Below the pieces are notes generated by a model. It was given only the letters and a program-made list of their open reading frames with translations, had not been told where the DNA came from and did no database searches. A DNA stretch of 64,000 bases from NCBI GenBank assembly GCA_045837725.1, contig JBEWZL010000093.1:1-64000 (forward strand), written 5' to 3'. Positions 3,346 through 57,600 of this stretch are shown piece after piece; within the stretch, counting starts at the first letter, position 1; each line of letters starts with the position of its first letter. The stretch comes from Vermamoeba vermiformis (taxonomy: Eukaryota). The translations under genes were made by a program, and so were the position numbers.

Positions 3346-3673
3346 GTTGATGATGTATTCTGAATAATAAGAATAACAAAAAAGGGGCACGTGCCAAGTA
3401 GCCTTTGCATGAAAAAATTTATCAAACTTGGTGTGCCAAGGCTGAACTCAACAATACACCGAAATATAAACTGTAGAACTAATATTTGATCACATTGTAT
3501 TCAGAATATGAATATTGTGCAACAGTGGGAGGGAGATGTCACGTCGTTTCCGGATTTGCGCAACCTATTCTGCAGCTATTCCCAAAACTAAATCAACCAA
3601 AAAATATAAACTATTATAAAATAATTTCTGCCTAATAACTGCACTATTAATAATATCTTTCAATCAAACACGG

Positions 3674-4480
3674 ATGGACAGAATACTAAAAATTATTGCC
3701 AATACACCTACTCCGCGAACAGTATCAACACTACTGCACGATATAAGAGCACTTGGAGTACTCCCTGGCGACACAGTTGTTGTGCACTCGAGTCTCTCTG
3801 CCATTGGATTTGTTGTCGGAGATGAAGTGGCCGTAATTCAAGCTCTGCAACAAGCAGTCACCGAGCAGGGCTCGATAGTCATGCCTGCATATTCATCTGC
3901 CATTAGCGATCCTGCGCTGTGGGAGAACCCTCCTGTGCCTGAAGCATGGTGGGACACTATTCGTAACGAGATGCCGTTGTTCGACCCGAGCTCTACTCCG
4001 CTTTACGGTCTCGGCGTAATACCAGAAGGTTTTGAATTTTTGTTAATGAGAAAAAATATCACTTGGTGCGCGTGGGGAGCACATGCCTCGAAGATCACGC
4101 AACATCATTCCCTGAGCTACTCGTACGGACCTAACACACCCTTGGGCACATTATACAACCACCCTAATACGAAGATTTTACTGCTTGGCGTTGATTTTGC
4201 GAGTTGTAGTGCCTTGCATTTGTCTGAAATTCTATCCGGAGTCGGGGCTGAGCGTCAGTGTGGAGCACCTGGATTGGACGACCAAGGCAAGAAGACCTGG
4301 ATTCAATACACTGACTTGGACTACGGTGGCGATGACTTTGCGCAGATAGGTCTAGATCTAGAAGCACAAACAAGTAGCGTGAGCACGGGTCCGATCGGAT
4401 CAGCAACTTGCAAGCTCGTGGATTTTCGTTCCTGCGTCGATTTTGCGACCGAATGGATCAAAAAGAATGGTAGTAAATAA
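3674..4480 (+). CDS. Aminoglycoside N(3)-acetyltransferase / YokD-like (Antibiotic_NAT family), apparently intronless
   Basis: 268-aa ORF with 'LGVLPGDTVVVHSSLSAIGFVVG', 'GSIVMPAYS', 'DPALWENPPVPEAWWDTIRNEMPLFDP' and 'ILLLGVDFASCSALHLSE', which follow the AAC(3)/YokD consensus. Confidence 0.88.
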   Translation: MDRILKIIANTPTPRTVSTLLHDIRALGVLPGDTVVVHSSLSAIGFVVGDEVAVIQALQQAVTEQGSIVMPAYSSAISDPALWENPPVPEAWWDTIRNEMPLFDPSSTPLYGLGVIPEGFEFLLMRKNITWCAWGAHASKITQHHSLSYSYGPNTPLGTLYNHPNTKILLLGVDFASCSALHLSEILSGVGAERQCGAPGLDDQGKKTWIQYTDLDYGGDDFAQIGLDLEAQTSSVSTGPIGSATCKLVDFRSCVDFATEWIKKNGSK

Positions 4481-29177: not shown

Positions 29178-29413
29178 GCAGTGTGGCTGTACAATAGAAA
29201 AACGAATTTTATTTTACCAAAGTACGGTAACATCACCACAGGTTATTTTGCGAAAGTGCAGCAGTCCTATTAATTGCATGACGTTATATCTGTGGTATTA
29301 TTATAGGTAGTAATGTAAACGACGCAGAGTTGTGATCAGATCCTTTTTAAAAAACTCTGACTACCAAAATTTTAGAAAATTATAGAGTTGACACAATTTG
29401 CTAAGGTCACAAT

Positions 29414-30184
29414 ATGGGAAGCAAAGAAGCAGCGTTAAAAATATTTTTAATATTTTCTGTAATTTATTCGTGTTCTTGTGCCGGATGGTGCCCAGATGTT
29501 CCTCCAAACACTCTGTCAGACTTAGAAATGGATGCAGGTTGTGTTTTATTATTTAATGGTGTTAACCTGGATGGTTGGAAGTATTTACGACCGTTAGATT
29601 CAAACTGGACGGTACGAGACGGAGTTTTGACCACATCTCACTTGCCACCGAACAGAAAACCAGGAGCTTTAACAGACATAGCTACGACAACTAACTTTAC
29701 TGAAGGTATATTTAAATTCGATTGGCGATTGGATCCTGCAGGTAATAGTGGTGTAAAATTCTTTTGCGATCTGGATGCGTTGTACCACGAAACCCCGAAT
29801 CGCAAGCGTAGCGCTGTGTGCCCTGAATATCAAGTACTCGATGACAATGGCTTCTTTCCTGACGCCTGGTACCCTAATCGAACAGCTGGAGCGTTGTACG
29901 AGTTGATCCCGCCGTTCAAACACAAACCACTGAATCCGATCAGCGATTGGAACTGCGGTGAAATTCATACTGATGGCGTATACACGGAATTTTGGATGAA
30001 TGGAGAGTTAGTGGTCACTTTTGATCGTTATTCTGACCACTTCAGAAAATTGGTCGCGAGATCCAAGTACAACCCGAAGACTTTTGGCTTAACCGCTTTA
30101 TCTCCACTCGTATTGCAGGATCATGGCCAGGCTGCTTATTTTAGATCTGTTAAATATTGTCCTGTAACCCAGAAAAGACGCTGA
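29414..30184 (+). CDS. Secreted DUF1080 (3-keto-disaccharide hydrolase-like) protein, intronless
   Basis: 256-aa ORF with signal peptide and 'LLFNGVNLDGW', 'WTVRDGVL', 'GNSGVKF', 'EYQVLD', 'AGALYEL', 'WN.GEI', 'LQDHG...YFRSVK'. Confidence 0.88.
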   Translation: MGSKEAALKIFLIFSVIYSCSCAGWCPDVPPNTLSDLEMDAGCVLLFNGVNLDGWKYLRPLDSNWTVRDGVLTTSHLPPNRKPGALTDIATTTNFTEGIFKFDWRLDPAGNSGVKFFCDLDALYHETPNRKRSAVCPEYQVLDDNGFFPDAWYPNRTAGALYELIPPFKHKPLNPISDWNCGEIHTDGVYTEFWMNGELVVTFDRYSDHFRKLVARSKYNPKTFGLTALSPLVLQDHGQAAYFRSVKYCPVTQKRR

Positions 30185-38646: not shown

Positions 38647-39191
38647 AGAAGAGTAAAAGAATTAGAGGGACGATTCCTCTGCGAATAAAAATTTATATAG
38701 CAATCACTACAAAGAGCAAAGGACAAGCCAGGACGCACAACAGATTCCTGGGCACCATGCTTAGATATCGGCAAAAATGAAATTCGGCACTCCAATTGGA
38801 CGCATCGCCGACCAAATCCAACCAACTTTGGTTCTAAAATTTAAATTATTTAATATGATAGCAGTGATTATTTTTTAGAGAAATGTAATTGCGTCAGGCG
38901 TGAGACTCTTACTTGCTGTTTTTAGGCGGGCATTTGCGGACGACAAATGTTTAACTCGCAGAGTGAGACGAAGCATCGGAAAACAAACCAATTAAGGTAC
39001 GCTTTAATAATGTACTTCTTCCTATGAAATATTCAGTTGTGGTCTTCGTGAACGTTTGCAAAATTTTTTTACTAACTTGGATTTAAACGACGAAGCCGTT
39101 CCACCCGGCAAGAAGAAGGCCAAGCTCATCCTTGGTAAGAACTTAAGTTCTTCGACCTTTAGCTAGCTTTGGGTGAATTTGTGAAGTTTAA

Positions 39192-42100
39192 TTAATCTGC
39201 TGGTATTGCCCGAATAGCAGAATCGAATAAGTTTACAAAAAATGACAATATATTTGTCAGAGGAAAGATTCTACGATAAGTTAGTCAACTTACTATATAG
39301 CACTTTGATAAAGACTTACCTCCATTTAGTCTCGAGAATGGTGCTGAATTCTTGCTCGATCCAGCCATCCACGACTCTTCGCAAAGTAGCTTCGGAAATA
39401 TTGCGTCCTTCAGCGGATTCATTTCTTTGCAAATAATACGACACCAAGAAGCGAATTCTGCGGACAAGACTTTCGTACAACGAGTAACTCGGTGCCTCTT
39501 TTCGAACCACAACTGCTGCTTTGTGTAGTGGCTTGAAAAATATTGTTTGATATTCTCTATCGTTGCGACTGAGCACTAGCTTGGACATGGCATCGAGAGA
39601 TTCCTTCGAATTTAAGAGTAAGGTTTAACGGATTCGGATCGAGTTCAAAAGTTACCTGCAGAGTAATCATTCCGCCGTCGAATATATCCTTGTATTCGTA
39701 CTTGTTCATGGTATTTTCGTATTTATTCTTGATCTTAACGCTCTTCTCGGCGATAAGTACCTCCAGTTCTTCAATCAAATACGGAATTTTAGATTCGAGA
39801 GCGATCTGATCTTGCAAAATTTCGTCGTTCAATTGTTTCAGCAGATCCTTCTTCTCTCCTTCGATGACGTCCATATTATGAGCTTCGATTTTATTAAATT
39901 CACTAGAACTTTGTTCTATTGGCTGCAATACCATTGAAACTTTAAATTCAGCTTGCAGTCGATCCTAAGAGTCCGATCGTCAGAACGAAAAAAAAACTTG
40001 ATAAAATCATTGTTTAGAGTTTACCTTCAAGTTCTGCAGATATTCTTTATAGAGGTTTTCTTCGCTGAAGTTCTTAGTCTTCGAGTCAAATGCGTTAATG
40101 GCCTCTTTCACCAATTTTTGGTGGTGCGTTGAGAGTGCCGATTGTGAGGCCGGTAGGTCGTATTTAACGGATTTGTATTGCGTCACTGCTTCTTCCATTG
40201 CAGTAGATAACAAGGTCGAGATCAGCTCGTTGTTTGAATTGTCGAGGATTTTGTATTGGTCTTGGACTTGGCCCTAAGAAATAATGAAGGGTTACTAGCT
40301 ATCCTTAAATCTGCGTGTACTTATGATAACATATATGCTAAACCATATTACAATTCACGCACCTCTAATGTTGATTTCATCGCTTCAATTTCCGCAATTT
40401 CTTCTTTCGAGTCGTACGTAGTTAATTCTTTCATGAACTCGCCGCGAACGAATTTGAGGACCTCATTAGCTACAATATAATATTAACACCGTTTGCATGC
40501 GTAAACAGTCAATGGTCATAAATGTACATTTTCTGGCAAGTACGACACTGCTGATCGGCAAATTAATTGTTTTGAAAAGATGAACGGCCTTGTCGAACTG
40601 CGTATCTTTCACGCTAATTATGTGCTGTTTGAATCGGTCTTTCGTCAATTGCAAATGTTTCGTTGCAACGTCGCTCAAGTGCGTCTAGAAAACAATGAAT
40701 AAAAAATTATTTAAGAAAAGTGCTGTTGACACGTACCAACAATACTTTGTTATTCTTCTCCTTAATATTCATATCTTTCAAATAATTCTCGTATATTTTG
40801 ACGTATTTAGCGGTCAATTGTTCGATCAGCTTGTTCCATTCTTTGCGCGGCATCGGGATCTGCGCGACTAAGAACAGAGTGTTTGAAAACTGATCGGCGC
40901 AGTACTCGCTCAATTGACTGTGACTCGTGTTCACAAAGAGGTCCCATATTGACGCTACTTGAGGGAACGAGTTCGTGTTGGATGCGTTTACCAAAGATCT
41001 GATCAGCCACGAAAACTCTGCACGAAATCCCGTTAGCCATATAAATTTCGTTTAAATACTACTATATTATGCACGATATATCTTACTTGGACCGCTAATG
41101 GGCTCATCAAAAACTTTTTTCGGCTTAATGTTCGAGAAGATCTGGATGACGCAGCGTTATTACGTAACTGACAAAAATAGTGCTATTGTAATCTTACGTC
41201 GGTTTTTAATTGCTGCATATCGTGCTTGAAGTCCTCTGCCAATCCGTCTGCCGGAGTTTTGCTCAGATCTTTCAGTGCCGCGAGACTTTTATGGGGAATA
41301 GGCAATGTTTTGCAGTTAATGGAGCTGAATAAATTCTCTACGATATTTTTAGGCGAATTTTCACTGCGCTTGCCGCTCAAATACTGTTCGAGCCAATCTT
41401 GAGGTGTCTTTCCGTTCAGATCTTGATAAAAATCTCTGACAAGCCACAAAAAGTCTGGAAAATCGATAAAATTGTTCTTGGAGCTGGAGAAGTCCCTATA
41501 ATCAATAATTATTCGGTTAAATTAAACTGCCAACGAAATAATAATGCACGTACTTTTCATCGGCTTGCAATGCAGTTCTTAACTGAAACAATTGCGTTCG
41601 TTGCGCTAATAAAGTATTCAATATTAAGGAATAAATATTTAAAGTAAATTTTGTAATGACTAGTCATCGTTTTTTTTAAAAAGGATATTTGATGTATTCC
41701 GCAGAGGCCTGATCGATGATTTTGATGGTATTAAATATCAAATAGCTGCTCAACTGCGTCGTGATTGAAAATAGCTTGGCGTCGTAGTTCTCTGAAGCTC
41801 CCAAACCGAAAAATCCTTCGCAGTCTAACAAAAGAATTGATTTGCCGTTCACTTTCATCGGCTCTTTCCACGCCCATATGCCCTATAATATTTATTAATG
41901 TATTATTATTGAAATACACGATTAAGATCGTCTTACCATCGTTTGTGGATCAATCGTATCGCCCACACAAAATCCATCGTTTTGACCGTGCAATTGGTTC
42001 AATAAAAAGCTCTTGCCAGTGTGATACGGGCCAATGACTATTAAAATAAAAATATGTAAATAAAATTACTGGTATTCCTGGCTATTTAGAGATTTTGTCA

Positions 42101-42348
42101 TTAATCGAATTGAATTTCAGTTTGTGCCGTCAAAATAAATCCGAATAATTACCTCCAATTACATATAAATTATCTTCAATCAATTCTATGTGTGAAAGTG
42201 CCTCCTCGTTAACTTCTAACAAAGATCGATCTTCGAGTGAAGGCCGAACAAGCTGCAGTGATGAAGCAGATGTGCACGTACAACTGACATAATTAAATAA
42301 ATATATAAATAAATAAAAAATCGATAAATAGCGAGTGCTCTTGCTCAT
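39192..42348 (-). CDS. Guanylate-binding protein / atlastin-family large GTPase with hydrophobic N-terminus and long helical region (copy A)
   Basis: 'SLQLVRP...LEVNEEALSHI', P-loop 'IGPYHTGKSFLLNQL', 'T.GIWAW', 'LLDCEGF', 'YDAKLFSITTQLSSYLIFN', 'FPDFLWLVRDF', 'LPIP', followed by many helical exons. Confidence 0.85.
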
Positions 42349-42450
42349 GGTGTAAGATGACAAAATTTTACTCTTTTTCTTTCGATTTTTGTGCTTGTTT
42401 TTCTTCAGCTCTTGGTCAATGAGGCACCAGAAATAATATTTTATACAAAG

Positions 42451-45400
42451 ATGTCGAGGAGAGGAGTATTGTGCCTGCTTATTATTGGCACGATAATTCT
42501 TCAAGCGGCATCTCAGAATATCGCCACAGCTGTTCAATTAGTGCGGCCTGACAGCTTGCACTTTCAATTGGAATTGGTGCCCGAGTCCCTACAGACATTA
42601 CAGAATATTAATACCGAAGTAGCTGTGCTGGGAGGTACGAATTGAATTTATTTTTGATTTTAGAATTCAATCACAAATCTTTTTAATGTCTAGTATTCAC
42701 TTATTACGCACTTATTAATTGCAATAATAAATATTTAAATTATTTTAAAATATTTTTGTCAAACAAGTGATTTTTGTGCTGGATTGAAAAATATCTTTTC
42801 TGATCTTGGTTTCTTTTGCTAGTGGTTGGTCCGTATCACTCAGGAAAGAGTTATTTGCTCAATCAATTGTTACAAAGACAAAATGCCTTCGATATTGGCT
42901 CGTCAGTCGATCCAAAAACACGCGTAAGTCGATCTAGCCACCAAAAGCCTTTATTAATTATTCTACTAGGGAATATGGATGTGGACCGAGCCAATAATAT
43001 ATGGTGGCAAGACTATAATATTATTGGACACCGAAGGATTTTTTGGTTCGAACGTGTCGGAAGTTTACGACGCGAAAATATTCTCAGTGACAGCGCTGCT
43101 GAGTAGCTACATGATTTATAATACGGTTAGGACGGTAGATCAGGCCACGATAGATTATATAGAGTACGTATTATCCTAATCAATACTTTAAAATTCAAGA
43201 TCTGATCGTGGATTTGTTTTTAGATTATTGGCTCGACGCACGCAGTTATTTAAATTGAAATCTAGCGACACAAAAACATCGAGTAACAGCGCTCCTATTA
43301 AATTCGACTTTCCCTTCTTTCATTGGGTGATCCAAGACTTTGTGCACAACATGTCCGCGGAACAAGCCACGAAGTGGTTATTGAACTCCATGAAATGTAA
43401 GCTGGTACCAAAGACTATTATTTTACGAAATTATCAATATTTAAATCGTGTTTAATCAACTAACAATTTTCGTGCTTTAGCCAAGCACACGGATGCAGAA
43501 AACTACGAAGAGGGATTGCTCGAAATATTCGAAGAAGATAACTTGGAGTGCACGACATTAGTGTATCCACAAACTGACTCGGAGAAGTTGAAAGACTTGA
43601 GCCGAATCACTGACGAAGAACTGCTCGTTGAATACCGCGAGCAAATGGCTCAACTGCGCAAACGAGTAAGTACGAAGTAGTAATAATAACGTGCATATTC
43701 CACGGATTGATTTTGCTAATTTTTTGCGTCAGATCTTGGACCGGATCGGCTTCAAAAAAGAAAGTCAAAAAGCGTTGTCAGGCCCTGCCTTCGTCGTGCT
43801 ATTGCAAACACTCGTTGAAGCGGCTAATTCGGACAAATTCCCGTCGATGCCGTCAGTGTGGAACTCGTTTATTGAAAGCAGCAGAAAAGACGCGAGAGAA
43901 TTTGGCGTGCTCAAATACAAAGAGAACTTGGCTGAATTGTTGCAGGTACGTTATAGGACTTCATCCATATGATGATGCAATCGTGGCAATATATTCTTAT
44001 GGCTGATCATTAATCCTATTCTATCTGAAGGCAATCGGTCTGGCCAATCAAGAAGAGTTCGAGCAAATTCATCTCAAAGCAGTAAAAACAGCGCAGGAAT
44101 TAATGGCCAAACAACTGTACGGACTCGTGGATTCAATTGATGAAGATTGGCAGGACGTGCAGGTACGCTGGCAATATTTTTTGAACTACGACAATGAACT
44201 AATACTGTTTTTTTCGTAGGTTAAAATCAGACTCGAATACGAGTACCACAAACTGATCAATCAAAATGACATTGAACGGCATTTGATTGCACAAAAATCG
44301 AGTATTGTGCACGACGAACAAAGAACAGATTAAAGCCATCCAATTGCCCAGATCATCGAACGACCTCAAAAAGATGGGTACGGCGAGTAGCTCTATCTGG
44401 CGAGTCACGTGCTCTTACTTACTCATAATTTCCTTTTGTAGAGTTGTCGACCGTTGCTCGCGCACAAGACGAATTCAAAAAATCGACGAAAAAGTTCAGC
44501 ACGGCAACCAGATATCAAAATCTAATCGAGGAGTTAGAGGTACGTAGCTGTTACTAACGACTATACTAGGCACTAACGGCGCTAACTTCATTGTGTTAAA
44601 GCATGAAATTCGAGGTCAATTTGCACAAGTCTCAATGGAGAACTCGAATTTGATCCAACTGTACTTAAAAGACAATGTCGATGCAGTCGAACAACAGTTC
44701 AAAGCTGAACAGGCTGCTAGAGCCATTGATCGTGCTATTACCCCGCAACAGCTCGAGAGTGAACTCAGCGCTAAAAAAACCAAGTATTTGAACGAGTTTA
44801 AGGCGAGGACGGAGGTTTATAAAGAAGAGACTGTATACAAGCTATTCGAAAATAATATCGAGGTACGTATTAGTGTAGAACAATTTGTCTCGAGATCTCA
44901 ACGGCAAACTAATAATTTGCCTTATTTAGACACAACTCGACAACGCGATCAAGATGATCAAAGACAAGAACAATGAACTGATCGAAAAGAGTGTTGCAGA
45001 GCTTCACTCGCGTTTAGAATCACGTGCCTTACAACAGATGAGCGACATTGACGCTTTCGACGTCGACGATCTAGCGCGCGACTTAGAGCAAGTTAGAGAT
45101 ACTGCCATTAACGAGTACAAGAACACTATGAAAGATTTCTCCGGAACTAATTCGTACAAACTGCATCTGTACGAGCTGAACGTAAGATCTTGCTTTTATT
45201 TCTTCTTTTTCACAGTACTTAATCGTGATTCTTAGGATATTTTAAATGGAAAGAAAGATCAGTTAATTAAGCATCGCATTGCAGAACTCCAAGACAAGTA
45301 TGAGGCACATCTAAGGAAAGCCCACGACGAGATCGAGGCAAATTTCGTTTGTGGAGATTGGCAAACAACGCGCAGCAAGGCAATTAAAATCCTGCAGCGA

Positions 45401-45697
45401 CAGCTTTCCGATTTGGGCGGTATGAAAGTCTTTTAGAGTCCTTAATCCACCGCGAAATTATTTTTAGTAACCGTTTTTTGATAGTGAGCAAATCCTCGGG
45501 GCTAAAATTATCAGAAAAATACGTTGATAAGGCGATCAAGGACCTATTCGATAAGTAAGTACTAAGTTTGGTGGATGCTTCGACTTACCGTAACTAAATT
45601 TTTGCAAAGCAAATGCCCGACCGGAGGATCTTGGCTGTGGATTGTGATCGTCGTTGTAGTCATCGTCGGACTCTTATTTGTCTTCCGAAGAAAATAA
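42451..45697 (+). CDS. Guanylate-binding protein / atlastin-family large GTPase with signal-like N-terminus and C-terminal transmembrane anchor (copy B)
   Basis: MSRRGVLCLLIIGTIILQAAS; 'VQLVRP'; 'VVGPYHSGKSYLLNQL'; 'GIWMW'; 'LLDTEGF'; 'YDAKIFSVTALLSSYMIYN'; 'FPFFHWVIQDF'; helical exons; ends 'GSWLWIVIVVVVIVGLLFVFRRK*'. Confidence 0.87.
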
Positions 45698-46111: not shown

Positions 46112-48520
46112 ATGGCCACACCTGTCACTAACTCCACCGCAGCTCCGATCGTCTACACAGCTGACGGCGCTGACAATGCTTGGGTGCTCGTAAGCTCCGC
46201 GCTTGTATTTCAGATGATTCCTGCGCTTGGCTTGTTCTACGGTGGCTTGACTAACTCTAAGAACATTTTGAATACTATCATGTTGTCTATGGTCTGCGCC
46301 GGCATCATTTCCATTCAGGTAACTCAATAATTTCGGAGCTCGATCCACCATTTGATTTTCATCAAATTAATTGCAAATAAGATGATGTGATGTTTTAGAC
46401 CACCGTTAACAATATGACGGGCCTATCCGTTGCACGGATGCGGTTCCGTTAAGCTGACGATCTCGTAACATTATTTTAACGATAATTTTATTATTAGTGG
46501 CTCTGCTGGGGTTACACCTTCGCTTTCGGTCCAGGTAAGCAGTGATAACAATATTGCATTCCTAGGTCCTTTTATTTTATGCATAATTTTGGATGTCTCT
46601 TTCAGTTAAGGAAATTAACTTTTATCACTAAAAATGGATGTAGCTTCGCTGCGACGTCCGAAGTGCAACTTGTTTCGTGCCCTTGGTTAATTGAATATTA
46701 CTCATAATTTTCCGAGCTGTTTTATTGTTTAGACCTCGTGTCAAAGCTTCCAAATCACTCCGAGCTAAATCCGGAGCAGATGCGACAAATACTTGCAAAT
46801 ACCATTGAAATCACACTACAGTGCTTATTACATAATACTAATATCGATCAACATTAAGGTTTAATTTTAAATTTTTTTATCACTAAAAAGATTCTCTGGT
46901 TGCAAGCATTGCTCATCCGGAAATATTTTATTAATACAATTATTATTTTTAGGCAACAGCGTATGGGGTGATTTCACTTACGGTGGCTTGAAGGGTGTTG
47001 GAGCAGATCCCAATCCGGATTACGCTCCAACGGTATCACATCTCAACTTTTGCTTGTTCCAAATGATGTTCGCGGCCATTACTCCAGCGCTTATTTCTGG
47101 TGCTGTTTTGGAGCGCATGAAGTTCTCTTCGTACGTTATCTTCATCTTTGTGTGGTCTACTTGCGTCTACGATCCCATCGCGCACTGGATTTGGTCTGCT
47201 TCGAACGTGACTCACCCTGATGACCCCATGAATGTCGTAAGTACCTTAAGTGCATATCTAGTACATATATTAATGCGCTACAGGGCTGGTTGCGCCAATT
47301 GGGCGTGGTTGATTTTGCGGGAGGCATTGTGATCCACTTGACGGCTGGATTCAGCTCAATTATTGCCACACTTATCATTGGCAAGCGTCGCAACACTCCT
47401 CAAGAGAAGATTCACGCGCACAACATTCCGTTCGTGCTCATCGGCGCTGGCTTGTTGTGGTTCGGCTGGTTCGGTTTCAACGGAGGTTCAGCTGGTGCAT
47501 CCAGCAGTGTTGCCGTGCAGGCCGCGTTCAACACTCAAATTGGAGGTACGTTTTTAATTCCCAGTATTCATAGTGTTAATATTCACCTTTGCTATCGTCA
47601 CAGCTGCCATGGGCATGTGTGTTTGGATGTTGCTCGAAGTCATTTTTACGCCGCACCACAAAGTCACCACAGTCGGTGCTGCCACTGGCGCTATTGTCGG
47701 TCTCGCGACGATCACACCTGGTGCTGGCTACGTCACCTCTCAGGCTGCTCTCGCGTTCGGCTTCCTCGGTCCTGCTTTGACTTTCTTGACCACTCGATTC
47801 AAGCACAAATTGGCCTACGACGACGCTTTGGTAAGCTGAGAACGCCGTCGATGAACAACAAATCACGTACTAACCATTCTGTTCTCAATTAGGACGTGTT
47901 CGCTGCTCACGGTATCGGTGGTGCTACTGGTGCAGTGTTGACCGGTGTCTTCGCGACCACTGAGGTTAACACCGTCAGCGGTGCTGTCGACGGCAATGGC
48001 ATGTTGATTGGTGAGTATTTATTGCTAGTGCCTGTAGTTATTCAATCTAATGTGACCTCGTTCAGTCTGGCAAATCGTTGCTTGTGGTGTGGCTATGGCA
48101 TTGAGTGGCTTGATCACTGCGGTCACTTTGTTGATTTTGAAGGCTACTTTGGGCTTGCAAGTCAGCGAGAACACCGAAGATCACGGTCTCGACAGCAAAT
48201 ACCACGAAGAAGAGGCTTATCACCTCGGTGAGCCCTTGGTCGAATTGCACTCGGAGTCTTCATCCACCACGCCTTCGCATAGTGGTACCAGCCCCACTCT
48301 CGTCAACTCGCAAGATCATTTGTTGAAGAACAACGTGCAGGCTCAACAAAGCAACAGCCGTCCTGTGGTTAACGCTGGCACGAAACAGGTCACCCAACCG
48401 GTCGAGTCTAGCAGCCAAGAGCAAAGCGAAGAGCAGTCGAGTTCACAACAACAAAGCAGCTCACAACAATCTTCGAGCAATCAAAGCTCTGAAGAGGCTT
48501 CTGATTCCTCAGACTCGTAA
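46112..48520 (+). CDS. amt: Ammonium transporter (Amt/Mep family) with Ser/Gln-rich C-terminal tail
   Basis: 'DNAWVLVSSALVFQMIPALGLFYGGL', 'FQMMFAAITPALISGAVLER', 'YDPIAHWIW', 'DFAGGIVIH', 'LLWFGWFGFNGGS', 'GLATITP' and 'DDAL.VFAAHGIGG', with both pore histidines present. Confidence 0.97.
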
Positions 48521-48615: not shown

Positions 48616-51600
48616 CTAATTCAACACAGGAGCTAATTTCGGGTGCTTCTTCGCTGCGGTCATGAGTTTATCAAACAGCTTGTCCAGCGTTGCAATACGA
48701 TTGTCAATCGCGTTCTCAAGCTCCGCAACTGCGAGTTGCTTCATGCCTGGAGAGCCATGACGATTGCCAGCTTCTTCAATCTTCTTCTCGATGGCCTCGT
48801 TCTGCGTGTCGAGAATTTGTTGGTATTTGACGAAGTGTTGGCGGATCTGTGCGGTGTACTTCGTCACTTCCTCCGCGACTTCCTTGATTTTCTTTTCTTC
48901 TTCGAATTTAAGATCGAGACACAAAGCCTTCATCACAGGCACAAAGTTGAAGTCTTTCTGTGCGATCTAACATCAAAAGGTAAATATTAGACAATCGCAC
49001 ACCGAGATCGATCAACGCACCTTATCAGCTACGTATTGTTCTGGTCCCGTGTATTCAGTACGATCTTTTCTTCGCAGGTACATGTTGAAGTTCAAGTAAT
49101 GCCATAAATTGTGATCGTGGAAGATGTGTTGTTCAAAGTCATAGCCTTGTCGCTCAAACACGTCGCGTTGAATGCCACACATGAAGCAACGGTTTTGGTT
49201 GTCTTCATCAAGCATTTGATTCTCCGCGCGTAACTCTTGGAACGTGTCAATGATAATACCAAAGATCAACTTCAGCAGGATGACAATGATCAAAATGAAG
49301 AACGACAGATCGTAGACGAGACGCCACGAGTACTGCGGACTAGCAAATGAATGGGGCGATAATAGACCACCAAGACCTCCGCCAGTACGAAGTCCATAAT
49401 TGAACACGGTCACGAGGCACATGGCCAGTGATTGGCAGATTAGCTGGTCGTCTTGAATGAAATCTTCACGGAAGAACAAGAAGCCCATGATGGCGTAGAT
49501 GTACAGTACCACGGCAGAGAGTAACAACTAATCCAGGTCAGTGGAGTACTTCAATTGGGGCAGGACTTACCGTGAGAATGATCGACTTGATGTTGACTGT
49601 CACGGATCTGATGACTTCTTTGAGTAGAGCATTGCGTACCACGAGATCAAGTAAGTGGAATGCGAAGAAATAAGGATTGCCTGCGGGCAACAAGAAGACG
49701 CCTAACACGGCACACAGCACGTAGCAGAAGTAAAACGGCACTCGTCCCGCGCTGAGGAAGTGAGCGGCAGTGAAAATCACGTTCTTTGTGTTCTTTGCGT
49801 CCAGTTCCTCCCACGAGGCCTGGTGAATGTTAATACGGGACTTAACAACAAATGAGTTCTACTTACTCCTCGCTCTCGCCATCGCTTTCTCTGCTCCAAT
49901 TGTCCATCGCTCATTACATTGACGTAAAAGATTAACACGGCGCCGGCTATTTGAAGCAAGCCAAGTAATAGCAAGCCAAAGAATGCCAAGTAAGACGTAT
50001 TAAATGCATCCGAGAAGGTGATCGATAAGTTGATGATGATCGAGAGCAACAGCGATGCGTTCAGAATATTTTGTTCTTCTTTTGCAACGCGCGAGAAAAG
50101 ACTGTTTTGTGCGAGCTTTTCTCGGTGGGTCATTTCTTCGAGCAAATCTTCTGACCGTTCGTAGAAATCCTGAATCTTAGTCTTCTGTGATTCGCGATTG
50201 ACTTGACGAATGAGATCCTCTTTTGACTTGAGCGGCAAGTTGTGGCATACAGGAAGAACTCTGAAATAGACTCGCTCGATGTTGTTGTTGCGTACAATTT
50301 CAACGCTTGCTGAACTTTTCACAAAGAAATTATCGTGGGGAATGGATTGCACCAGCTTTTCCAACTACGAGCGAAACGTTAGAATAGGTAAACGGCGTTA
50401 ACTAGCAAACTTACTTTGCTGTCCGAGTCGTAGGACTCTAACGTCTTGAACAAGAAGTAGAGCAAAAACCCTTCGTTGATGATTGTTTCAGTATGCTCGT
50501 CAACCTCGGTGTCTTCAGTGAGATTAGACTCCACGAATCCGCTGACGAGTTTGAAGTCTTTGAGTAGCTCATCAAAGTTCAGCGAGTTCAGTATGTGCCG
50601 AGGGATGGCAGGGCTTGTATTGCCTTCCAGTAAACTCAACAGAGTGATGAGCATCGACTCTTTCAGCTTGTTAATCTTCGCGTGCTCTACATTCAACGTC
50701 TTCAATCTCCAAATGTAGTTGATGGACTCGCAGAGCTTTGTGCGACTCAGCGTGATTTGATTCTCCGCTGAAGGTCCTTGGCAGTATTCAGTCAATGTCG
50801 CGAAGAGCTGAATGGCGATGTCGATGTTGTTCTTATCGATGCCGCCTTCCAATGACTCCAAGCAGGCTGCTGTCTCGCTGATCAAATCGACGCTCTTTGC
50901 CGAGTACGGTTGCAAGCGCAACAAACTCTGCAGCTCAAGATTGTGACCTTCGCAGAGCAGCTGCAAGAATCTGAGAATTTGCTTGATGAAACCGCTATCT
51001 TTCATTTGCTTCTCTTCAGTCTGCTGTTCAAGTGCGGCTTCAGCGATGGACTTTCCAGTGAGTGAAAAACCAAGGCTAAAAGCGGAAACGAGCGCATTCT
51101 TTCGTTCTCGTTTCTGAGAATGAATTTTGCGCTCTTCAAGGTCTTCCAGCAGCTTTCGCATCCTGGTTCGAATTTCTACGAACAAGTCGCAATTAGGATT
51201 GCTTTTGAACGTGATGAGTATCTCGGTTTGCACATGTTTGTTGCCACCATGCAGGAGCGCTATGCCGAACGAAAGAACTTCGTGAACTATGTTGCTATTG
51301 GGTACGTTGATCAACCGGAAGATTAATTGCGTCGCTCCGAGATCGTTGAGTTGGCTCTGATATTTCTCTAGAGCCTCATTTGATGCGTCGATTAGGCCTT
51401 CTAACATAGTGCGTAGTGCTCTCACGGTCATGAGAATGCTCGAGTTGAAGTCTCCGCTCTTAATAACATCTTCTGAGCACACGACTTCAATCAACTTGCG
51501 CAAGAACGCAGTGTCATTGGAGTCGAGATTATGCTTAAACAATTCGACTAAACGAGCTGATTCTTTTTCGTTGGTGAGAGTTGAAGAGCTGAGCAACAGT

Positions 51601-54600
51601 TAGTTATGACTTCTTGAAGGAATGGTTGGCTTACCAAAAGGCATGGAAATTCTTTAAACTAGCGTGCAAGTACTGTTCCTTGCTGAGTAATTTCTTTGCC
51701 GAGAAGCTACTGAGAAAAGCTGCCACTCGATCCTCTTGCTTTTCGTTTTCACGAGGAGTTGCTTGGATCTCGTGCGCAAGAGCTTCAATTGCTTTGACAT
51801 CGCCTTTAGCAGTCAAATTCTTGCTTTTCATTGCCTCGAAGCAAGTCTTCAAAGTGAAGGCCTCTTTGCTCGCGAACTCTCCTTGCAGCGAAGATGCTAA
51901 CTCCACCAGATGATGCGAGATATTGTGGCAGATATCCTGGCGAATGGCATCCAGTTTTGACTTCGTGGAGTAGAACGAGTCAAAATAAACGCGAAGGAAA
52001 GGCAACAGCTTGGTAAAAATGAACGGTCGAAGTTGCTTCTCCAGGCGCCTACAAAAGCATTAGTGTAAGCTATTCGTTTCGAATTATTTAATAATCGGTA
52101 CCTTTCAAGCAAAGCTTTGATCTTTTCTTGCTTTTCTTTCTCTTTTTGTTCCCGTTTGCGTTGCTTTTCCTCGTGTTTTTGTTGCTTCAGCAACTCTTTT
52201 TCTTCTTTTTTCTTTTCTTTGGCCAACCGCTTCTCTTCTTTCTGGTGCTCCTTTTCTTCTTGTTTTCGTTTTTTGGCTTCATCTTTATCTTTTTTAAGCT
52301 TTTCTTTCTCCGCTTTAGCGATTGGTTTCTTTACTTTCTTTTCCGGCTTTTCCTCATCGTCGCTTTCGGATGCCGAGCCAGACTTTGACTTGGAACTAGA
52401 TTTGGACGAGGCACTCTTAGCGTCTTCGCTATCACTTTCGGACTTCGATTCATTGTCGGATTCCTTTTCTGAGTCACTTTGGTCACTTTCTGACTTACTT
52501 TCTGATTCGCTCTCTGATTCGCTCGAGCTACTCTCCGATTCACTTTCAGATTCGCTTTCGCTTTCGCTGTCACTGTAACTGGCCGACTCATCCGAGGAAA
52601 ATTCCTCTTCCGAGCTGCTGACGTCATAAACATCTTCTGCTAGTTCGGCATCTTTGTTGGCACCTCGTGGTCCGTATTCTTTCACTCGCTCGATAAACAA
52701 ACGCAGAGACTCCTCAGCACTTTGAAGGATTCTCCATAACTGGCTAGAATTGTCGATGTGCTTGATCTTTCGTTCTGTTTCTAAGAATCCTTCAAGAAAC
52801 AGGGACAGAAACGCGCCGCGAATAGGCGCCCAATTGCTCATGTCTGAGATTTGTTCCACAATCGTGTTGACGTCAAAAATGCTCTGGCACTTAATTTCAG
52901 CTTCGTAGATCTTTCCTTGACAAATTATTGCGAAGAGCTCGATAAGCTTGACGCAGTACTGCATTTCTGAGTTTGTTTCTCGATAAATACGCTCATGCAT
53001 CATTTTAGATCTGCAGTTATTAGAAATGTTTAACACAATTTAAAGTGTGTTTACCTTTTGCTAACGAGTTCAGGATTGTCGTAAATTATAAGCACCGATT
53101 TTTGTTTTTCTGCAAGCAAGTTTGCGAGCAGTATTTGGTTGCGACGCAATGGAATATTGTTGATAGTCAGAATAGTCTGATAAAGATTAGAAAACAAGCG
53201 TTAATTAGTAGCAACTGCTGTAACTCACATGCAACACTTCAACATAGATCGGTAGTTTGACCTTAGCCATTTGATTCAACACTTTGCGGACGTGTGCTTC
53301 CGTTATTTGCAAGCAAATATCGCGATTATTGTGAATTATTGCGATGAGCAGCTCGGAGACTTTGATTGTCAAATCAATATCGTCGATATTCTCGAGCAGG
53401 AAATCAATGTGATTGAACATCCTTTCTTGATTTTCCGCATTGTTGCGACAAAACTAAGATAACAATTAGTACCAGTTGCGGTGACTTAAAAGTTCAGCTT
53501 ACTCTTTTCAAGAATTCAAGGCATGAATTGAGCACTTCCGTTCGATCAGAAATCTTTTTCACCTTCATGATCTTAATGACAGCGTCGTAGACCTTCAAGT
53601 GATTGAAGATTTTTTGATTCTCGAGGTGTGACCGATACACATCACCAGCAAGACTCGTCATTTGTTTGAGAATGTCTTTGAGGTCGTAGAGTTGCCGCTT
53701 GAACTCCGTAGCCATTTGCTTTCGAATGAAGCTCATGTATTGCCGTACTTGGGTGTACGTTGCCACAAACTTCTCGTCGGCAAGTATTTGAATCTTGGAC
53801 TGCGCCTTCAGCAACTCTTTTTCTTGTCTACTTTTTGATTAGTACCAAACACTGATTTAGAACGGAACTTACGTAAAATTTCTGATAAGTAAGTTGGCTG
53901 CAGCACAAGACAAACGCGTGTTCGAGTTCGATACTAAACTCATCAACAACGCTAAGTACTCTGGTGTCATTAAGTGGTATTCTTTCATCACCGCCTTGAC
54001 CTGGGGCGCAGTACTTTCATCGAACTGCGTGGAGTCTTCGTAGTACTTCTTCGTCTTGATATCAATGTCCGATATCTTTGACTTCGCTGTTTCCAATAAA
54101 TAGGTCAAGCGTCGGTCGATGCGGTAATCGTAAAAGTAATCCAACATGGTGCAAACGGTTTCTTTTGATTCTTCGTCATTATTAGGATCACTGAGGATTG
54201 ATAGAAGGAACGGCAGCAGTTTGGCTACGTCGTCGTGTGTAAATAAGCCGATACTGAAGACTTGCTGGCATAAAAGCAAGACCGTAGACAATAGCTTGTC
54301 TTGCCCACTGTGCAAGTACTCAAATACAAACGTCTTCAGCTTTTCGAGGTCGAATTGCATGAAAGCTAAGCATGCTTAGTAAAAAGCGACAGCTAAGGTC
54401 GAAACTTACATGATATAGAGCTTTGCGACAAAATAGTATCGCCGCCCGTTGACCTGATGTTTTGTTGCAAGTTGGACCAGAGCTAAAATATATTAGCCTT
54501 CGAAATTTCAAATATTGTTTTTAATGCTTACTCGAGTATAGTTAATGAAGCTGACTTGTTTAACGGTGCCTTGTTTGATGCTAACTTCAATTGCCGCGAA

Positions 54601-57600
54601 TATAAGCTTGCCCATCGAAATTCTAAAAATAGGTTAGAATTTGTCGTTTAAGAGTAGTTGGGCGAACCTGACGGGTCCAGGTAACTGATTGTCTGCCAAT
54701 CCAGCCAAGGCCAGTAATAGATTGTACTTGCGAAGTACCAGCGCACCCGTAGTTACATTACCACCGTAACAAAGGTGTGCGAGCAGGTTGATGAAGTTTG
54801 TCATGTAGTCAAGCAGCTTAGGGTTATCAGTCAAGTAGGTGGCCAATTCAGTCCATTCCTTGTTTGCGGTCATCACTTTTAAGTAAACTCCGGACACACT
54901 CTTTTCATGTTGCGGAACAGTCGGCTGAAGGAAAATGAGTTACACGAGCAGCATGTACTAAACAAACACTTACTCTCGGAGAAAACAGGTTGCTGCGTGT
55001 CAAAAACGAAGTTGCACCCAAGCGATCGGTCAAAGAATCTTCGTTTGAGAGTTTTAACATTATGACCGCATCGTTGTTGTCAAGGAGCATTCGCGCAATC
55101 ATAATTTGATTACGTGGTATTGATTTTCCCAAGCACGTGCACATCGAAGATAGCAGTGTGAAGTACCTATCTAATGGTAAAACGATTGTAAAAGCGCACT
55201 GATGACGTACCTGTTGGACTTGGCTTTGTTTTCTGCTATTTTGTTTATCAAATTTCGTATTTGGATTTCGGAAATGCGTTTCAACAAGTTTTTGTTGTCT
55301 TTGATCAATTCGATGTACGTTGATGTGCCTTTAATCGACAATGCGATCTGTAATAGGTCAGTTTTGATTTTATGAACGAAATGACTTACGTTTCCTTGAA
55401 TAAGCATAGCGTACTTCGAGGCATAGTTCTTGTTTAATTGGTTGTCGACAAAGATCAATCGCAGCAGAATGTTAATGTAACGGCACAATGCCAGCAGCGC
55501 ATGATTTTCCGGTCTCTTAATTTCTTCGAGTTTGACTTTGTCATTGGCGAGCGTAAGATAGAGGTATTGAATAAGTACATCAATGATCTACGAATAAATG
55601 GTTATGAATGGCCTAAATTCGGTTGCATGAGTTACTTACTCCTTGTTCGCGGAACAAGTGCTGAATTTCCTGAACGGGAGAATTTAAATTTTTCAGAGTT
55701 TCGTACGCTACTGTGCCCAAATCCGTGTGCTTCACAGGGTTAACTTGTAAAATCAATTGTTGCAGTATCTTATCGATTGATTTGGCTTGTACTGCCATTG
55801 GTGCAATCTCCTCGCCTGCACTGGACACGAGCCTCTTCGCCTACTCAAATTAGCATTATTGTCAACGCAATCCTGACTTACTTGCTCAAGGTGCACTTTC
55901 AACTCCCGCAGCCTTCCGTGTAGCGTATGGAGCGCGGCAACTTCACTATGTTTCACTTTTATGACAGCAAATACATCTTTGTCCTCGAATGTCGACACGC
56001 CAGTGATCTAACCGACCTATTAGACATTATGACCATAAGACTCTGAACTTACGCTGAGACTTTCTTCTTCTCCTTTCCGCGTGCACAAGATTTCTTGTTC
56101 GGCGTGTAGCCAACACTGAGACTTGTGATGCCTAATACGAACAAATGAACCGAATTTGACGTTTTCTGCTACCGAGGATCCCAGAGTAATCGGATGAAAA
56201 GTGAACAGAGTATTGGGTGAATTAGGCCCATCGCACGTGGTTAGCTTGATGGTTTTGCTGCTCGACTCCTCCATAATAGTTGCAAGAGAAAGTTGAGGTA
56301 CTGACGTGCTCATCTTTGGTTGAGTACGTGCCATTGTGGACCGAGATTGACTAATACTGTCGTCTTCCTCAGCCGTTAAATATTTGCCAGTAGCAACGTG
56401 GCGCAGGCGATATAATTTTTCAAACGTGGCAATACCACCTAAATAGTGTGCGTTAGTCACGTACAAAACCATAGTTGCACTACTTGCCTCGAGTATTGTT
56501 ATCGAATTCTACCTCCCAAAGCGAGTTTGAGTTCGTGTAGTTCGTGCGCCGCTTGGCACTTTCGAGGCAAACTGTGTGGAACACTTAATAACATACTAGT
56601 ATTAACGAAAGCACTTACCTTTTTCGAACGACTGCGCGTTTGAGTCAAAAAATCTGTCCAAATTGAACACGGAGTCGTTTCTTATTAACGAGCTGCTCGT
56701 GTCAGTTCTAAGGGACTTGGCTGACGAAGACAAATCAAATGAGGAACCACTTCGTGACAAACTGCCTTGTGAGCTGTCGCCGTCACTGTTATCATCCGAC
56801 GACTGATCAGACTCTTCATCGGTTTCTCTTTTTGCCGAAGAAGTCAGTCGCGCATTCTTCTCGAAGAGTTGTCGCTCTTCGCTGTCATTCAAAAGATACG
56901 CCTCGATTTCTTGGTGAAACAATCTTATGGTGTCTCCAGCCTTCAAAAACTCTTCCTCAAGCGGTGAGTAATGGCTGTAAGGTACGACACGCCAACCAAC
57001 GCCAGATGGATTGCTTGAGGCATTAATTTCGCTCGCATTTTCCGCTATTAATTATTAGCTCCAACTACTTGAGTGGCTATATCGCAACTTACTTCGCGTG
57101 AGATGAACGCCCAAGTTTGGAAATCGTTTGCTCTCCAGCACAATTTGATCACCCATAGCAACGGGCTCGCCTTCAGACCTCATCTTAAAGCGAGGAGACA
57201 CAACGAACCTATTTTATCTGTCAACAATAGCTCGAGCAATTCCTACGGATACTTACCAAGACCCTTCAGTTCCATCGGGCTCTAGTACCACCTTCAAGCA
57301 ATCTTTCTCGAGGTTTGCCATTTCTTTGACGGATATAGTCACAAAGTGGCCGCTTTTCACGTGTTGGAGCTGCACAATTTGACCGTACACCACTGGCTGG
57401 CCGGCGACATTTTGACATTCGTGAATATTTTCGTCCATTTCTGTTAGTGCTGCGTCACGCAACTTCTGCAAGTCATTGCTGGCGTGTATTTCACTACTCA
57501 CTCCGAGCAGTGTAGCGTTATTGTGAACCTCGTTAAACTGCTTCTGAGCATCGTATTTAAAGCGAGGGCAAACACGAAATACGCAAGCTGTGAAGTATTA

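What the first reader, a model, noticed from the sequence alone, without database searches (positions are those of the whole stretch)
39192..45697. Head-to-head pair of GBP/atlastin-family GTPases with signal-peptide-like N-termini
Seen: two paralogues with start codons about 100 bp apart (42348 minus, 42451 plus). They share 'QLVRP', 'GPYH[TS]GKS.LLNQL', 'D[CT]EGF' and 'YDAK[LI]FS', with similar intron positions. Both begin with a hydrophobic leader. Copy B ends in a single transmembrane helix plus RRK; copy A has only a weakly hydrophobic end. Established: GBPs and atlastins have cytosolic GTPase domains without signal peptides and act as dimers in membrane fusion or cell-autonomous immunity. 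Inference: a co-regulated pair, possibly an anchored plus soluble heterodimer, with a lumenal or extracellular GTPase domain. That topology would be unusual and could relate to phagosomal or antimicrobial function.
Basis: partly seen in the sequence, partly recalled or inferred. Interest (0 to 1): 0.7.

Follow-up and report, generated by a model that had tools for sequence, protein, structure and literature searches.

The report
Signal-peptide GBP GTPase gene pair
Two neighbouring genes of a single-celled eukaryote encode large GTPases of the same kind as the Dictyostelium guanylate-binding protein, and sequence comparison suggests that this widespread kind points its enzyme domain into the endoplasmic reticulum rather than the cytosol, against the one published test.

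Summary
In detail: two spliced, divergently transcribed GBP-family genes (ATGs 102 bp apart, 30% identical, 9 shared intron positions), each with a signal-peptide-like leader. B ends in a TM helix plus RRK; A ends in an amphipathic helix.

The premise that GBPs lack signal peptides is wrong. A and B belong to a wide clade with Dictyostelium DdGBP (amoebozoans, holozoans, a malawimonad, many invertebrates); plant GBPL2 is built alike. In this clade 64 of 78 complete N-termini have the leader and 74 of 78 have His in place of the catalytic Arg finger. Leader charge, TM charge bias, odd TM counts and a RING domain behind the TMs of one member all point to type I topology, with a lumenal G domain on a four-repeat helical stalk (about 0.7). 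The published DdGBP protease assay says cytosolic, but read only GFP tags and cannot separate the models. An A/B heterodimer and phagosomal function are unsupported here. Known architecture; the lumenal, His-finger reading was not found in print.

The parts
39192..42348 (-). Gene A: leader, GBP G domain, four-repeat helical stalk, amphipathic C-terminal helix. Exons 42348-42153, 42037-41937, 41882-41689, 41613-41554, 41495-41198, 41141-41087, 41017-40737, 40684-40528, 40469-40363, 40273-40025, 39964-39656, 39603(or 39579)-39320, 39270-39192
   Evidence: 7 of 12 introns among displayed joints
42451..45697 (+). Gene B: leader, GBP G domain, four-repeat helical stalk, TM helix, RRK. Exons 42451-42634, 42823-42923, 42970-43163, 43224-43396, 43481-43665, 43733-43945, 44031-44162, 44220-44377, 44442-44539, 44602-44862, 44930-45181, 45236-45419, 45485-45554, 45610-45697
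   Evidence: 7 of 13 introns among displayed joints
42349..42450 (.). 102-bp spacer between the two start codons; must hold both 5' UTRs and the promoter(s) if the starts are right
   Evidence: start sites of transcription not mapped (one search shows none)
42280..42348 (-). Leader of A (aa 1-23): basic n-region, 12-residue h-region, small-residue c-region; 23% GC
   Evidence: not covered by RNA contigs
42451..42513 (+). Leader of B (aa 1-21): MSRRG, 12-residue h-region, QAAS
   Evidence: not covered by RNA contigs
42009..42032 (-). P-loop of A, GPYHTGKS, His (42023-42021) at the site of the GBP1 Arg48 finger
42828..42851 (+). P-loop of B, GPYHSGKS, His (42837-42839) at the Arg48 site
41614..41688 (-). 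AT-AC intron of A with minor-spliceosome-type 5' site and branch-like sequence; spliced in contig X2
   Evidence: the U12 consensus itself is recalled
43164..43223 (+). GT-AG intron of B at the same codon and phase as the AT-AC intron of A
43859..45383 (+). Helical stalk of B, about four 85-90 aa repeats, with phase-0 introns at aa 395, 480, 567, 651
   Evidence: helical in the DdGBP model
39558..40928 (-). Helical stalk of A (about aa 332-685), same repeat pattern
44310..44319 (+). Frame break in B: one base more than spliced contig X2; stop at codon 432 as assembled. Assembly error or strain-specific null/truncation
45629..45694 (+). C-terminal TM helix of B and RRK tail
39213..39266 (-). 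C-terminal amphipathic helix of A; last junction spliced in X2
39903..39950 (-). In-frame 48-nt insert in exon 11 of A, absent from X1 and X2; a fragment of a dispersed repeat flanked by a 9-bp direct repeat

Best explanation
A and B are old duplicates of the DdGBP-like branch of the GBP family. SHOWN: GBP-type G domain with P-loop Lys/Ser, switch Thr, DxEG and the G4 Asp kept; His instead of the Arg finger; a long helical stalk of about four repeats; both genes spliced in related strains. INFERRED (about 0.7): the leader is a cleaved signal peptide, so G domain and stalk enter the ER lumen; B is a type I membrane protein with RRK in the cytosol, and A sits on the lumenal leaflet through its amphipathic helix. 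INFERRED (about 0.35-0.4 on its own): as in GBP1 and atlastin, nucleotide binding dimerises the G domains head to head, here slowly because the Arg finger is gone, so that two membrane-rooted rods link up inside the lumen and act as a tether or spacer that shapes ER cisternae and ER-vacuole contacts: an inside-out atlastin that does not fuse membranes. The two genes probably share a promoter and work mainly as homodimers with different anchors.
For: Clade assignment with the P-loop masked and two trees put A and B with DdGBP (27 rows, SH-aLRT 99). Leader in 64 of 78 clade members with complete N-termini against 1 of 13 others. Leaders are short (median uncharged span 14.5; 2 of 64 reach 20) and more positive on the N side in 50 of 64, equal in 9, reversed in 5: cleaved signal or N-in anchor, both of which put the body in the lumen. 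C-terminal TM in 42 of 61 full-length members, net charge higher after than before it in 33, equal in 8, lower in 1. Of 57 full-length members, 36 have one C-terminal segment, 3 have three, 1 has two, 17 none; atlastin-type hairpins of two are all but absent. P0131 has a RING-H2 domain behind three TM segments. Plant GBPL2 is reported with SP plus three TMs and a C-terminal NES that acts (PMC12489281, PMC12034427). DdGBP-GFP is ER-located and functional with a C-terminal tag (PMC12040241). The genome has a separate Sey1/RHD3 for ER fusion and two leaderless Arg-finger GBPs. Human SLC35B1 moves GTP and GDP at a lower rate in liposomes (PMC9010763), so a lumenal supply is possible.
Against: PMC12040241 concludes from protease treatment that the DdGBP G domain is cytosolic; I could not see the blot. 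No SignalP or DeepTMHMM was available; my tests use Kyte-Doolittle windows and charge counts, and rows are related, not independent. By K+R count alone the TM bias is weaker (27 up, 8 equal, 7 down). Sequon enrichment is inconclusive (NxT O/E 1.22, z 2.1; 1.15, z 1.4 without the switch-II site; NxS below expectation) and Cys content is lower than in canonical GBPs. 14 of 78 clade members lack a leader by my cut-off. The two starts are not covered by RNA. No GTP binding, hydrolysis or dimerisation is shown for any member, and the Arg of the RD motif is mostly Gln or Glu. B is frameshifted as assembled.
Confidence: 0.6

Rival explanations
1. The G domain is cytosolic, as published for DdGBP: the protein is anchored by its C-terminal helix (the leader unused, or an uncleaved reverse anchor) and works on the ER surface like an atlastin or GBP.
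For: PMC12040241: N- and C-terminal GFP fusions were both degraded in intact membranes while PDI was protected. DdGBP was listed as a putative partner of a Sec7 GEF (PMC8565484). GTP is abundant in the cytosol (established knowledge). Reviews treat GBPL2 as cytosolic and atlastin-like.
Against: With one TM the two ends cannot both be cytosolic. Loss of the C-terminal GFP is what a type I protein gives, as for the CnxA-GFP control. The N-terminal GFP sits before the leader, and that fusion 'appeared to produce unspecific aggregates'. Only anti-GFP was read. A leader kept in 64 of 78 members with signal-peptide anatomy and the charge biases are unexplained by this model.
Confidence: 0.2
2. The body is lumenal or extracellular but acts as a receptor-like sensor: a nearly inactive or acid-switched G domain binds guanine nucleotides or bacterial lipids in the endosome, phagosome or at the surface and signals through the anchor.
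For: His at the finger site in 74 of 78; Arg48Ala abolishes hydrolysis in GBP1/2 (PMC11846989). Some members have cytosolic RING or Cys-rich tails. DdGBP was found in macropinosome and pathogen-vacuole proteomes and restricts one intracellular bacterium (PMC12040241); GBPL2 was also seen at the tonoplast (PMC12489281).
Against: DdGBP-GFP co-localised with ER, not the vacuole membrane. Most tails are a few residues long, B's three; A and the animal members have no TM, so no direct path for signalling. The pH switch is my inference with no data.
Confidence: 0.2
3. A and B form an obligate heterodimer from a shared promoter, B anchoring A.
For: 102-bp head-to-head spacing; both spliced in the same two runs; different anchors; A departs more from the family consensus (Cys where 75 of 75 have Thr or Ser in DxEG). 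Heterodimers occur among human GBPs (title of PMC2998424 in a listing).
Against: D. discoideum has one GBP only (PMC12040241). A has its own membrane helix, like animal members. A nearby unrelated divergent pair is about 310 bp apart. 30% identity; no conserved synteny could be examined (one search found no close loci).
Confidence: 0.15
4. In this strain B is broken: the frameshift is real and yields a null or a 431-aa secreted form without anchor, so only A works. This is a separate question from topology.
For: Stop at codon 432 in the assembly; the extra base is not in a homopolymer run; A also has a strain-specific insert, so this strain differs from X1/X2.
Against: All downstream exons and splice sites are intact, and displayed differences from X2 in B are 8 synonymous to 1 non-synonymous (39 of 114 differences classified). 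It is the only small indel listed for any of the four runs.
Confidence: 0.3

Closest known systems
Dictyostelium discoideum DdGBP (gnbp, DDB_G0281639; P0242)
   Same: Same clade; leader, His-finger P-loop (GTFHSGKS), repeat stalk, single C-terminal TM with basic tail, similar length (796 aa).
   Different: Single gene there, two divergent paralogues here; A has an amphipathic helix instead of a TM. Published as cytosol-facing; my reading is lumen-facing.
Invertebrate and holozoan DdGBP-like proteins (sponges, Nematostella, Lingula, echinoderms, amphioxus, chelicerates, myriapods, Chromosphaera)
   Same: 37 of 40 named homologues with a P-loop match have a leader and 40 of 40 have His (hand-picked named records); animal members end in an amphipathic helix like A.
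   Different: Annotated only as GBP-like; A is not shown to group with them, so its helix may be convergent.
Plant GBPL2 clade (At2g38840)
   Same: Predicted signal peptide, GBP domains, C-terminal TMs, ER location (PMC12489281, PMC12034427). P0133, which I take to be of this type from its leader, Arg-type P-loop and length, is sister to the clade.
   Different: About 600 aa, three TMs, shorter stalk; P0133 keeps the Arg finger. No named plant sequence was in my alignments.
Vertebrate GBP1-7
   Same: Closest solved structures: GBP1 E 7e-27 for P0026; DdGBP model matches the GBP5 G domain at TM 0.89, rmsd 2.7.
   Different: No leader, Arg48 finger, RD motif, CaaX prenylation, cytosolic; GBP1 secretion is linked to caspases (PMC5571548, listing and abstract start only).
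Atlastin, RNF112, Sey1/RHD3
   Same: Same GB1/RHD3 fold; membrane-anchored at the C-terminus; weaker matches, E 2e-10 to 2e-5.
   Different: Cytosolic G domain on a two-helix hairpin, one three-helix bundle, Arg finger (recalled for atlastin; R77A structures are listed). The genome has its own Sey1/RHD3.

Membership tests
GB1/RHD3 (GBP-atlastin) GTPases | PF02263 G domain with G1, G2 Thr, G3 DxEG | tested here: met
   A has Cys in DxEG where 75 of 75 have Thr or Ser
GB1/RHD3 (GBP-atlastin) GTPases | Helical domain after the G domain; GBP-like fold | tested here: met
   for A and B; model and fold search on DdGBP as stand-in
DdGBP-like (signal peptide) subfamily | Groups with DdGBP apart from canonical GBPs | tested here: met
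   SH-aLRT 99; P-loop masked: A 196 vs 146, B 201 vs 163 bits
DdGBP-like (signal peptide) subfamily | N-terminal signal-like leader | tested here: met
   heuristic, no SignalP; starts not covered by RNA
DdGBP-like (signal peptide) subfamily | C-terminal membrane helix | tested here: met
   B: TM (behind the frame break); A: amphipathic helix as in animal members
DdGBP-like (signal peptide) subfamily | ER location and side of the membrane | not testable with these tools
   only indirect sequence tests
Canonical GBP1-7 type | Arg48 finger in the P-loop | tested here: not met
   His in A and B
Canonical GBP1-7 type | RD motif in G4 | tested here: inconclusive
   A has RD, B has QD; clade Q32, E26, R10, K5 of 75
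Canonical GBP1-7 type | Soluble, no leader, CaaX or no anchor | tested here: not met
Canonical GBP1-7 type | GTP to GDP/GMP hydrolysis and nucleotide-driven dimers | not testable with these tools
   no assay; no complex prediction run
Atlastin / Sey1 ER fusogens | Two-helix TM hairpin, both ends cytosolic | tested here: not met
   B has one TM, A none; clade 39 of 40 with an odd count
Atlastin / Sey1 ER fusogens | Phylogenetic grouping with atlastin, RNF112 or Sey1 | not tested
   no such rows in the trees; similarity to GBP1 is far higher for P0026
Minor (U12-type) intron, A intron 3 | AT-AC ends, ATATCCTT 5' site, branch-like sequence near the 3' end, spliced | tested here: met
   consensus recalled; U11/U12 RNAs not searched

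The most novel reading that the evidence does not exclude
DdGBP, A, B and their relatives in amoebozoans, holozoans, malawimonads and many invertebrates form an ancient, unrecognised subfamily of lumen-facing large GTPases: signal-cleaved, with a His in place of the Arg finger (possibly gated by lumenal pH), on an exon-repeat stalk, tethering or spacing membranes from inside the ER or vacuole. The published cytosolic topology of DdGBP would then be wrong, and GTP-driven machinery would exist inside the secretory pathway.
Probability: 0.4. Interest if true: 0.85.

Novelty: new variant of a known kind. Interest (0 to 1): 0.6.

Why it matters
Signal-peptide-targeted GTPases in the ER lumen are not an established class (recalled; one search listed none), so a conserved lumen-facing GBP would imply a lumenal GTP cycle and a new way to shape or sense from inside the ER. 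It would change how the antibacterial and migration phenotypes of the DdGBP mutant and the immune role of plant GBPL2 are read. The question is cheap to settle in Dictyostelium, where the knockout and a functional C-tagged protein exist. The pair itself adds a natural contrast of TM and amphipathic anchors, and a minor/major intron switch at one site. If the G domain proves cytosolic, these are ordinary new members of a described architecture.

Tried and rejected
Short-exon homologue searches were weak: 2 hits among 16 candidates, none among 98 for A exon 5, so no close orthologue could confirm the A leader. The metagenome scan gave 3 distant loci and no synteny. No RNA holder was listed on record; raw reads X14 and X16 came from a more distant organism, 18 and 24 reads, too few for starts or levels. 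Contig depth was not used as a measure of co-expression. Sequon and Cys tests were inconclusive. A+B as sisters: not found in free trees, not rejected (p-AU 0.456). No complex prediction was run: spliced A and B cannot be given by reference, and a DdGBP homodimer would pass by likeness to GBP1. The idea that A's leader is intron sequence was rejected: no upstream Met and the candidate donor is out of phase. The idea that the 48-nt insert is an intron was rejected: no canonical ends keep the frame, and it is part of a dispersed repeat. An unusually high minor-intron load was rejected: 167 against 89 control matches genome-wide, 3 against 1.3 in the window. Earlier findings of the scan: none. 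Supplement S2 of PMC12040241 gave only its legend; supplement 13 part 1 was chemistry.
Full report
Observation. The region holds two intron-rich genes read away from each other. A runs from ATG 42348 on the minus strand to a stop ending at 39192 (13 exons, 781 or 789 aa). B runs from ATG 42451 to a stop ending at 45697 (14 exons). 102 bases separate the ATGs. Five of 14 exon pieces scanned hit Pfam GBP above cut-off. The proteins are 30% identical over 668 aa and share 9 intron positions in the same phase, of 12 in A and 13 in B, whereas the two other GBPs of the genome share one or two with A. Free trees do not join A and B, but the data do not reject it (p-AU 0.456); I read them as old duplicates.

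RNA. No run on record as RNA held the stretch, but contigs of X1 and X2 from related strains are spliced. 14 of my 25 introns are among the 15 joints displayed; 9 joints were not displayed. Of 114 letter differences 40 were displayed and I classed 39: A 19 synonymous to 11 not, B 8 to 1. Neither run covers 42033-42755, so the starts and leaders are not shown by RNA. X2 lacks one base near 44314; with it, B as assembled stops at codon 432. This is an assembly error or a recent strain-specific break; I cannot tell which. A's third intron is AT-AC, spliced in X2, at the same codon and phase as a GT-AG intron in B.

Leaders and ends. Each gene has one possible Met before the P-loop. Both leaders have a basic n-region, a 12-residue h-region and small residues after it. 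Such a start arises at 169 of 42604 window positions and 4 of 3055 AT-rich ones, which matters because A's leader is only 23% GC. B ends in a TM helix and RRK. A ends in an amphipathic helix (hydrophobicity 0.54, moment 0.38) like ten homologues tested, mostly animal (moment 0.24-0.42), against 0.05 for B and 0.09 for DdGBP.

Family. A search with B exon 3 found 946 cluster representatives and listed the best 150. 44 lacked a P-loop match and 15 lacked a complete N-terminus; of the other 91, 78 scored closer to DdGBP-like references and 13 to canonical GBPs with the P-loop masked. A leader is present in 64 of 78 against 1 of 13, and His stands at the Arg-finger site in 74 of 78 against 1 of 13. 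These rows are related, so the counts describe a clade and are not independent trials. Named members include dictyostelids, Balamuthia, Pelomyxa, Phalansterium, Chromosphaera, Gefionella, sponges, Nematostella, Lingula, echinoderms, amphioxus, chelicerates and myriapods; no vertebrate was named among the 120 rows listed, which does not prove absence. DdGBP itself (P0242) has the His. A and B fall in a 27-row clade with DdGBP at SH-aLRT 99 in a 39-row tree without atlastin or Sey1 rows (one search agrees). The genome also has two leaderless Arg-finger GBPs and a separate Sey1/RHD3. I did not determine the host lineage.

Active site and stalk. In 75 clade members (17 rows set aside by hand as canonical or doubtful) the P-loop Gly, Lys, Ser and the DxEG residues are invariant, the switch Thr is kept in 74, the G4 Asp in 71 and the His in 71; the Arg of the RD motif is mostly Gln or Glu. 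The His aligns with GBP1 Arg48, whose loss abolishes hydrolysis in GBP1 and GBP2 (PMC11846989, passages). So nucleotide binding is likely and fast self-activated hydrolysis is doubtful. Profiles of stalk segments cross-match at about 87-residue steps, and B has phase-0 introns at aa 395, 480, 567 and 651 with partners in A: the stalk looks built by repeat of an exon module. A model of DdGBP (pLDDT 85.9, pTM 0.55) is helical from residue 287 on and matches GBP5/GBP1 best.

Topology. Four sequence tests agree. Leaders are short and more positive on the N side (50 of 64, 9 equal, 5 reversed, without the terminal amine). The C-terminal TM, found in 42 of 61 full-length members, has more positive net charge after it in 33, equal in 8, less in 1; by Lys+Arg alone 27, 8, 7. 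Segment counts are one in 36, three in 3, two in 1 and none in 17 of 57. One member of 17 scanned has a RING-H2 domain behind three segments. A signal peptide plus an odd number of TMs with a basic tail is type I topology (established). A fifth test, sequon enrichment, was inconclusive, and Cys content is low.

What is known. DdGBP is described with a predicted signal peptide and one C-terminal TM (PMC8565484, passages; PMC12040241, abstract, passages, Discussion and S2 legend; PMC5758549, passages). The plant GBPL2 clade is described with a signal peptide and three TMs, at ER and tonoplast (PMC12489281, passages and section 6; PMC12034427, passages). PMC12040241 concludes that the DdGBP G domain is cytosolic because N- and C-terminal GFP fusions were both digested. 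My objection is inference: only GFP was read; a C-terminal tag is lost in a type I protein exactly as in their calnexin control; the N-terminal tag precedes the leader and that fusion was said to aggregate; and one TM cannot leave both ends in the cytosol. The blot is a picture that I could not see; a protected GFP fragment on it would count against me. Lumenal GTP is possible: human SLC35B1 exchanges GTP and GDP at lower rates (PMC9010763, passages). Searches listed no paper that defines this clade, notes the His, or argues for a lumenal GBP; I read passages of only the papers named here, the library lacks most subscription journals, and I did not see Reimann 2023 or Huang 2019/2021, which may bear on it.

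How it most likely works. Shown: paired genes, GBP fold, His finger, repeat stalk, leaders and anchors. Inferred at about 0.7: signal cleavage and a lumenal body, B type I and A on the inner leaflet. Inferred at about 0.35-0.4: slow nucleotide-dependent head-to-head dimers link membrane-rooted rods inside the lumen as a tether or spacer, which would fit the ER location and the vacuole-remodelling phenotype of DdGBP. Rivals: cytosolic G domain (0.2), lumenal sensor, perhaps acid-gated by the His (0.2), obligate A/B heterodimer (0.15), and, on a separate axis, B broken in this strain (0.3). A shared promoter is likely from spacing, but an unrelated divergent pair nearby has about 310 bp between ATGs (one comparison only).

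Verdict. The pair is real and belongs to the DdGBP-like branch, so as genes they are new members of a described architecture. The clade-wide signal peptide, His finger and likely lumenal topology make a variant of the GBP family that I did not find in print and that contradicts the one direct experiment in a testable way. Interest 0.6.

Noticed in passing
window 41688-41614 (-) and 43164-43223 (+); L004 1605-1650: Same intron position and phase is AT-AC (minor type) in A and GT-AG in B and in the C218 paralogue: a minor/major switch at one site.
   Followed up: partly
L003 1508-1435 (-), G000:C300: A second AT-AC intron in the canonical GBP paralogue, 8 codons from the site in A. The 10-base 5' motif occurs 167 times against 89 for the reversed control, so about 80 such introns; two lie in GBP genes.
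   Followed up: partly
window 39902-39950: A 42-bp internal piece of a dispersed repeat (37 other matches, 90-100% identical) sits in frame in exon 11 of A between 9-bp direct repeats; absent from X1 and X2. On C238 and C7 the repeat occurs as inverted pairs about 0.8 and 1.4 kb apart, like the ends of a small DNA transposon.
   Followed up: partly
window 44310-44319: One-base frame break in B relative to spliced contig X2; assembly error or strain allele.
   Followed up: partly
window 39021-39076 (-): A spliced GT-AG intron on the minus strand 115 bp past the stop of A (run X1): 3' UTR of A or a next gene.
   Followed up: no
window 3620-4480 (+): Long uninterrupted ORF matching aminoglycoside 3-N-acetyltransferase (PF02522, E 1.7e-62): a bacterial-type gene in a eukaryote, possibly transferred.
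   Followed up: no
window 29405-30184 (+): ORF matching 3-keto-disaccharide hydrolase (PF06439, E 1.1e-30), also bacterial-type.
   Followed up: no
window about 49000-57000 (-): IP3-receptor/ryanodine-receptor-like channel gene (MIR, RIH_assoc, Ion_trans), next to an ammonium transporter gene at 46112-48520 (+).
   Followed up: no
P0131, P0269, P0064: Family members fused to a C-terminal RING-H2 or Cys-rich domain behind the membrane segments, like lumenal-sensor E3 ligases.
   Followed up: partly
P0026: A record labelled as archaeal falls inside the eukaryotic clade with leader and TM; probably a mis-binned eukaryotic contig.
   Followed up: no
B aa 123-125 (exon 3, window 42970-43163): An N-glycosylation sequon just after DTEG is present in 32 of 75 clade members, B and DdGBP among them, but not A: a ready site for testing lumenal exposure.
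   Followed up: partly
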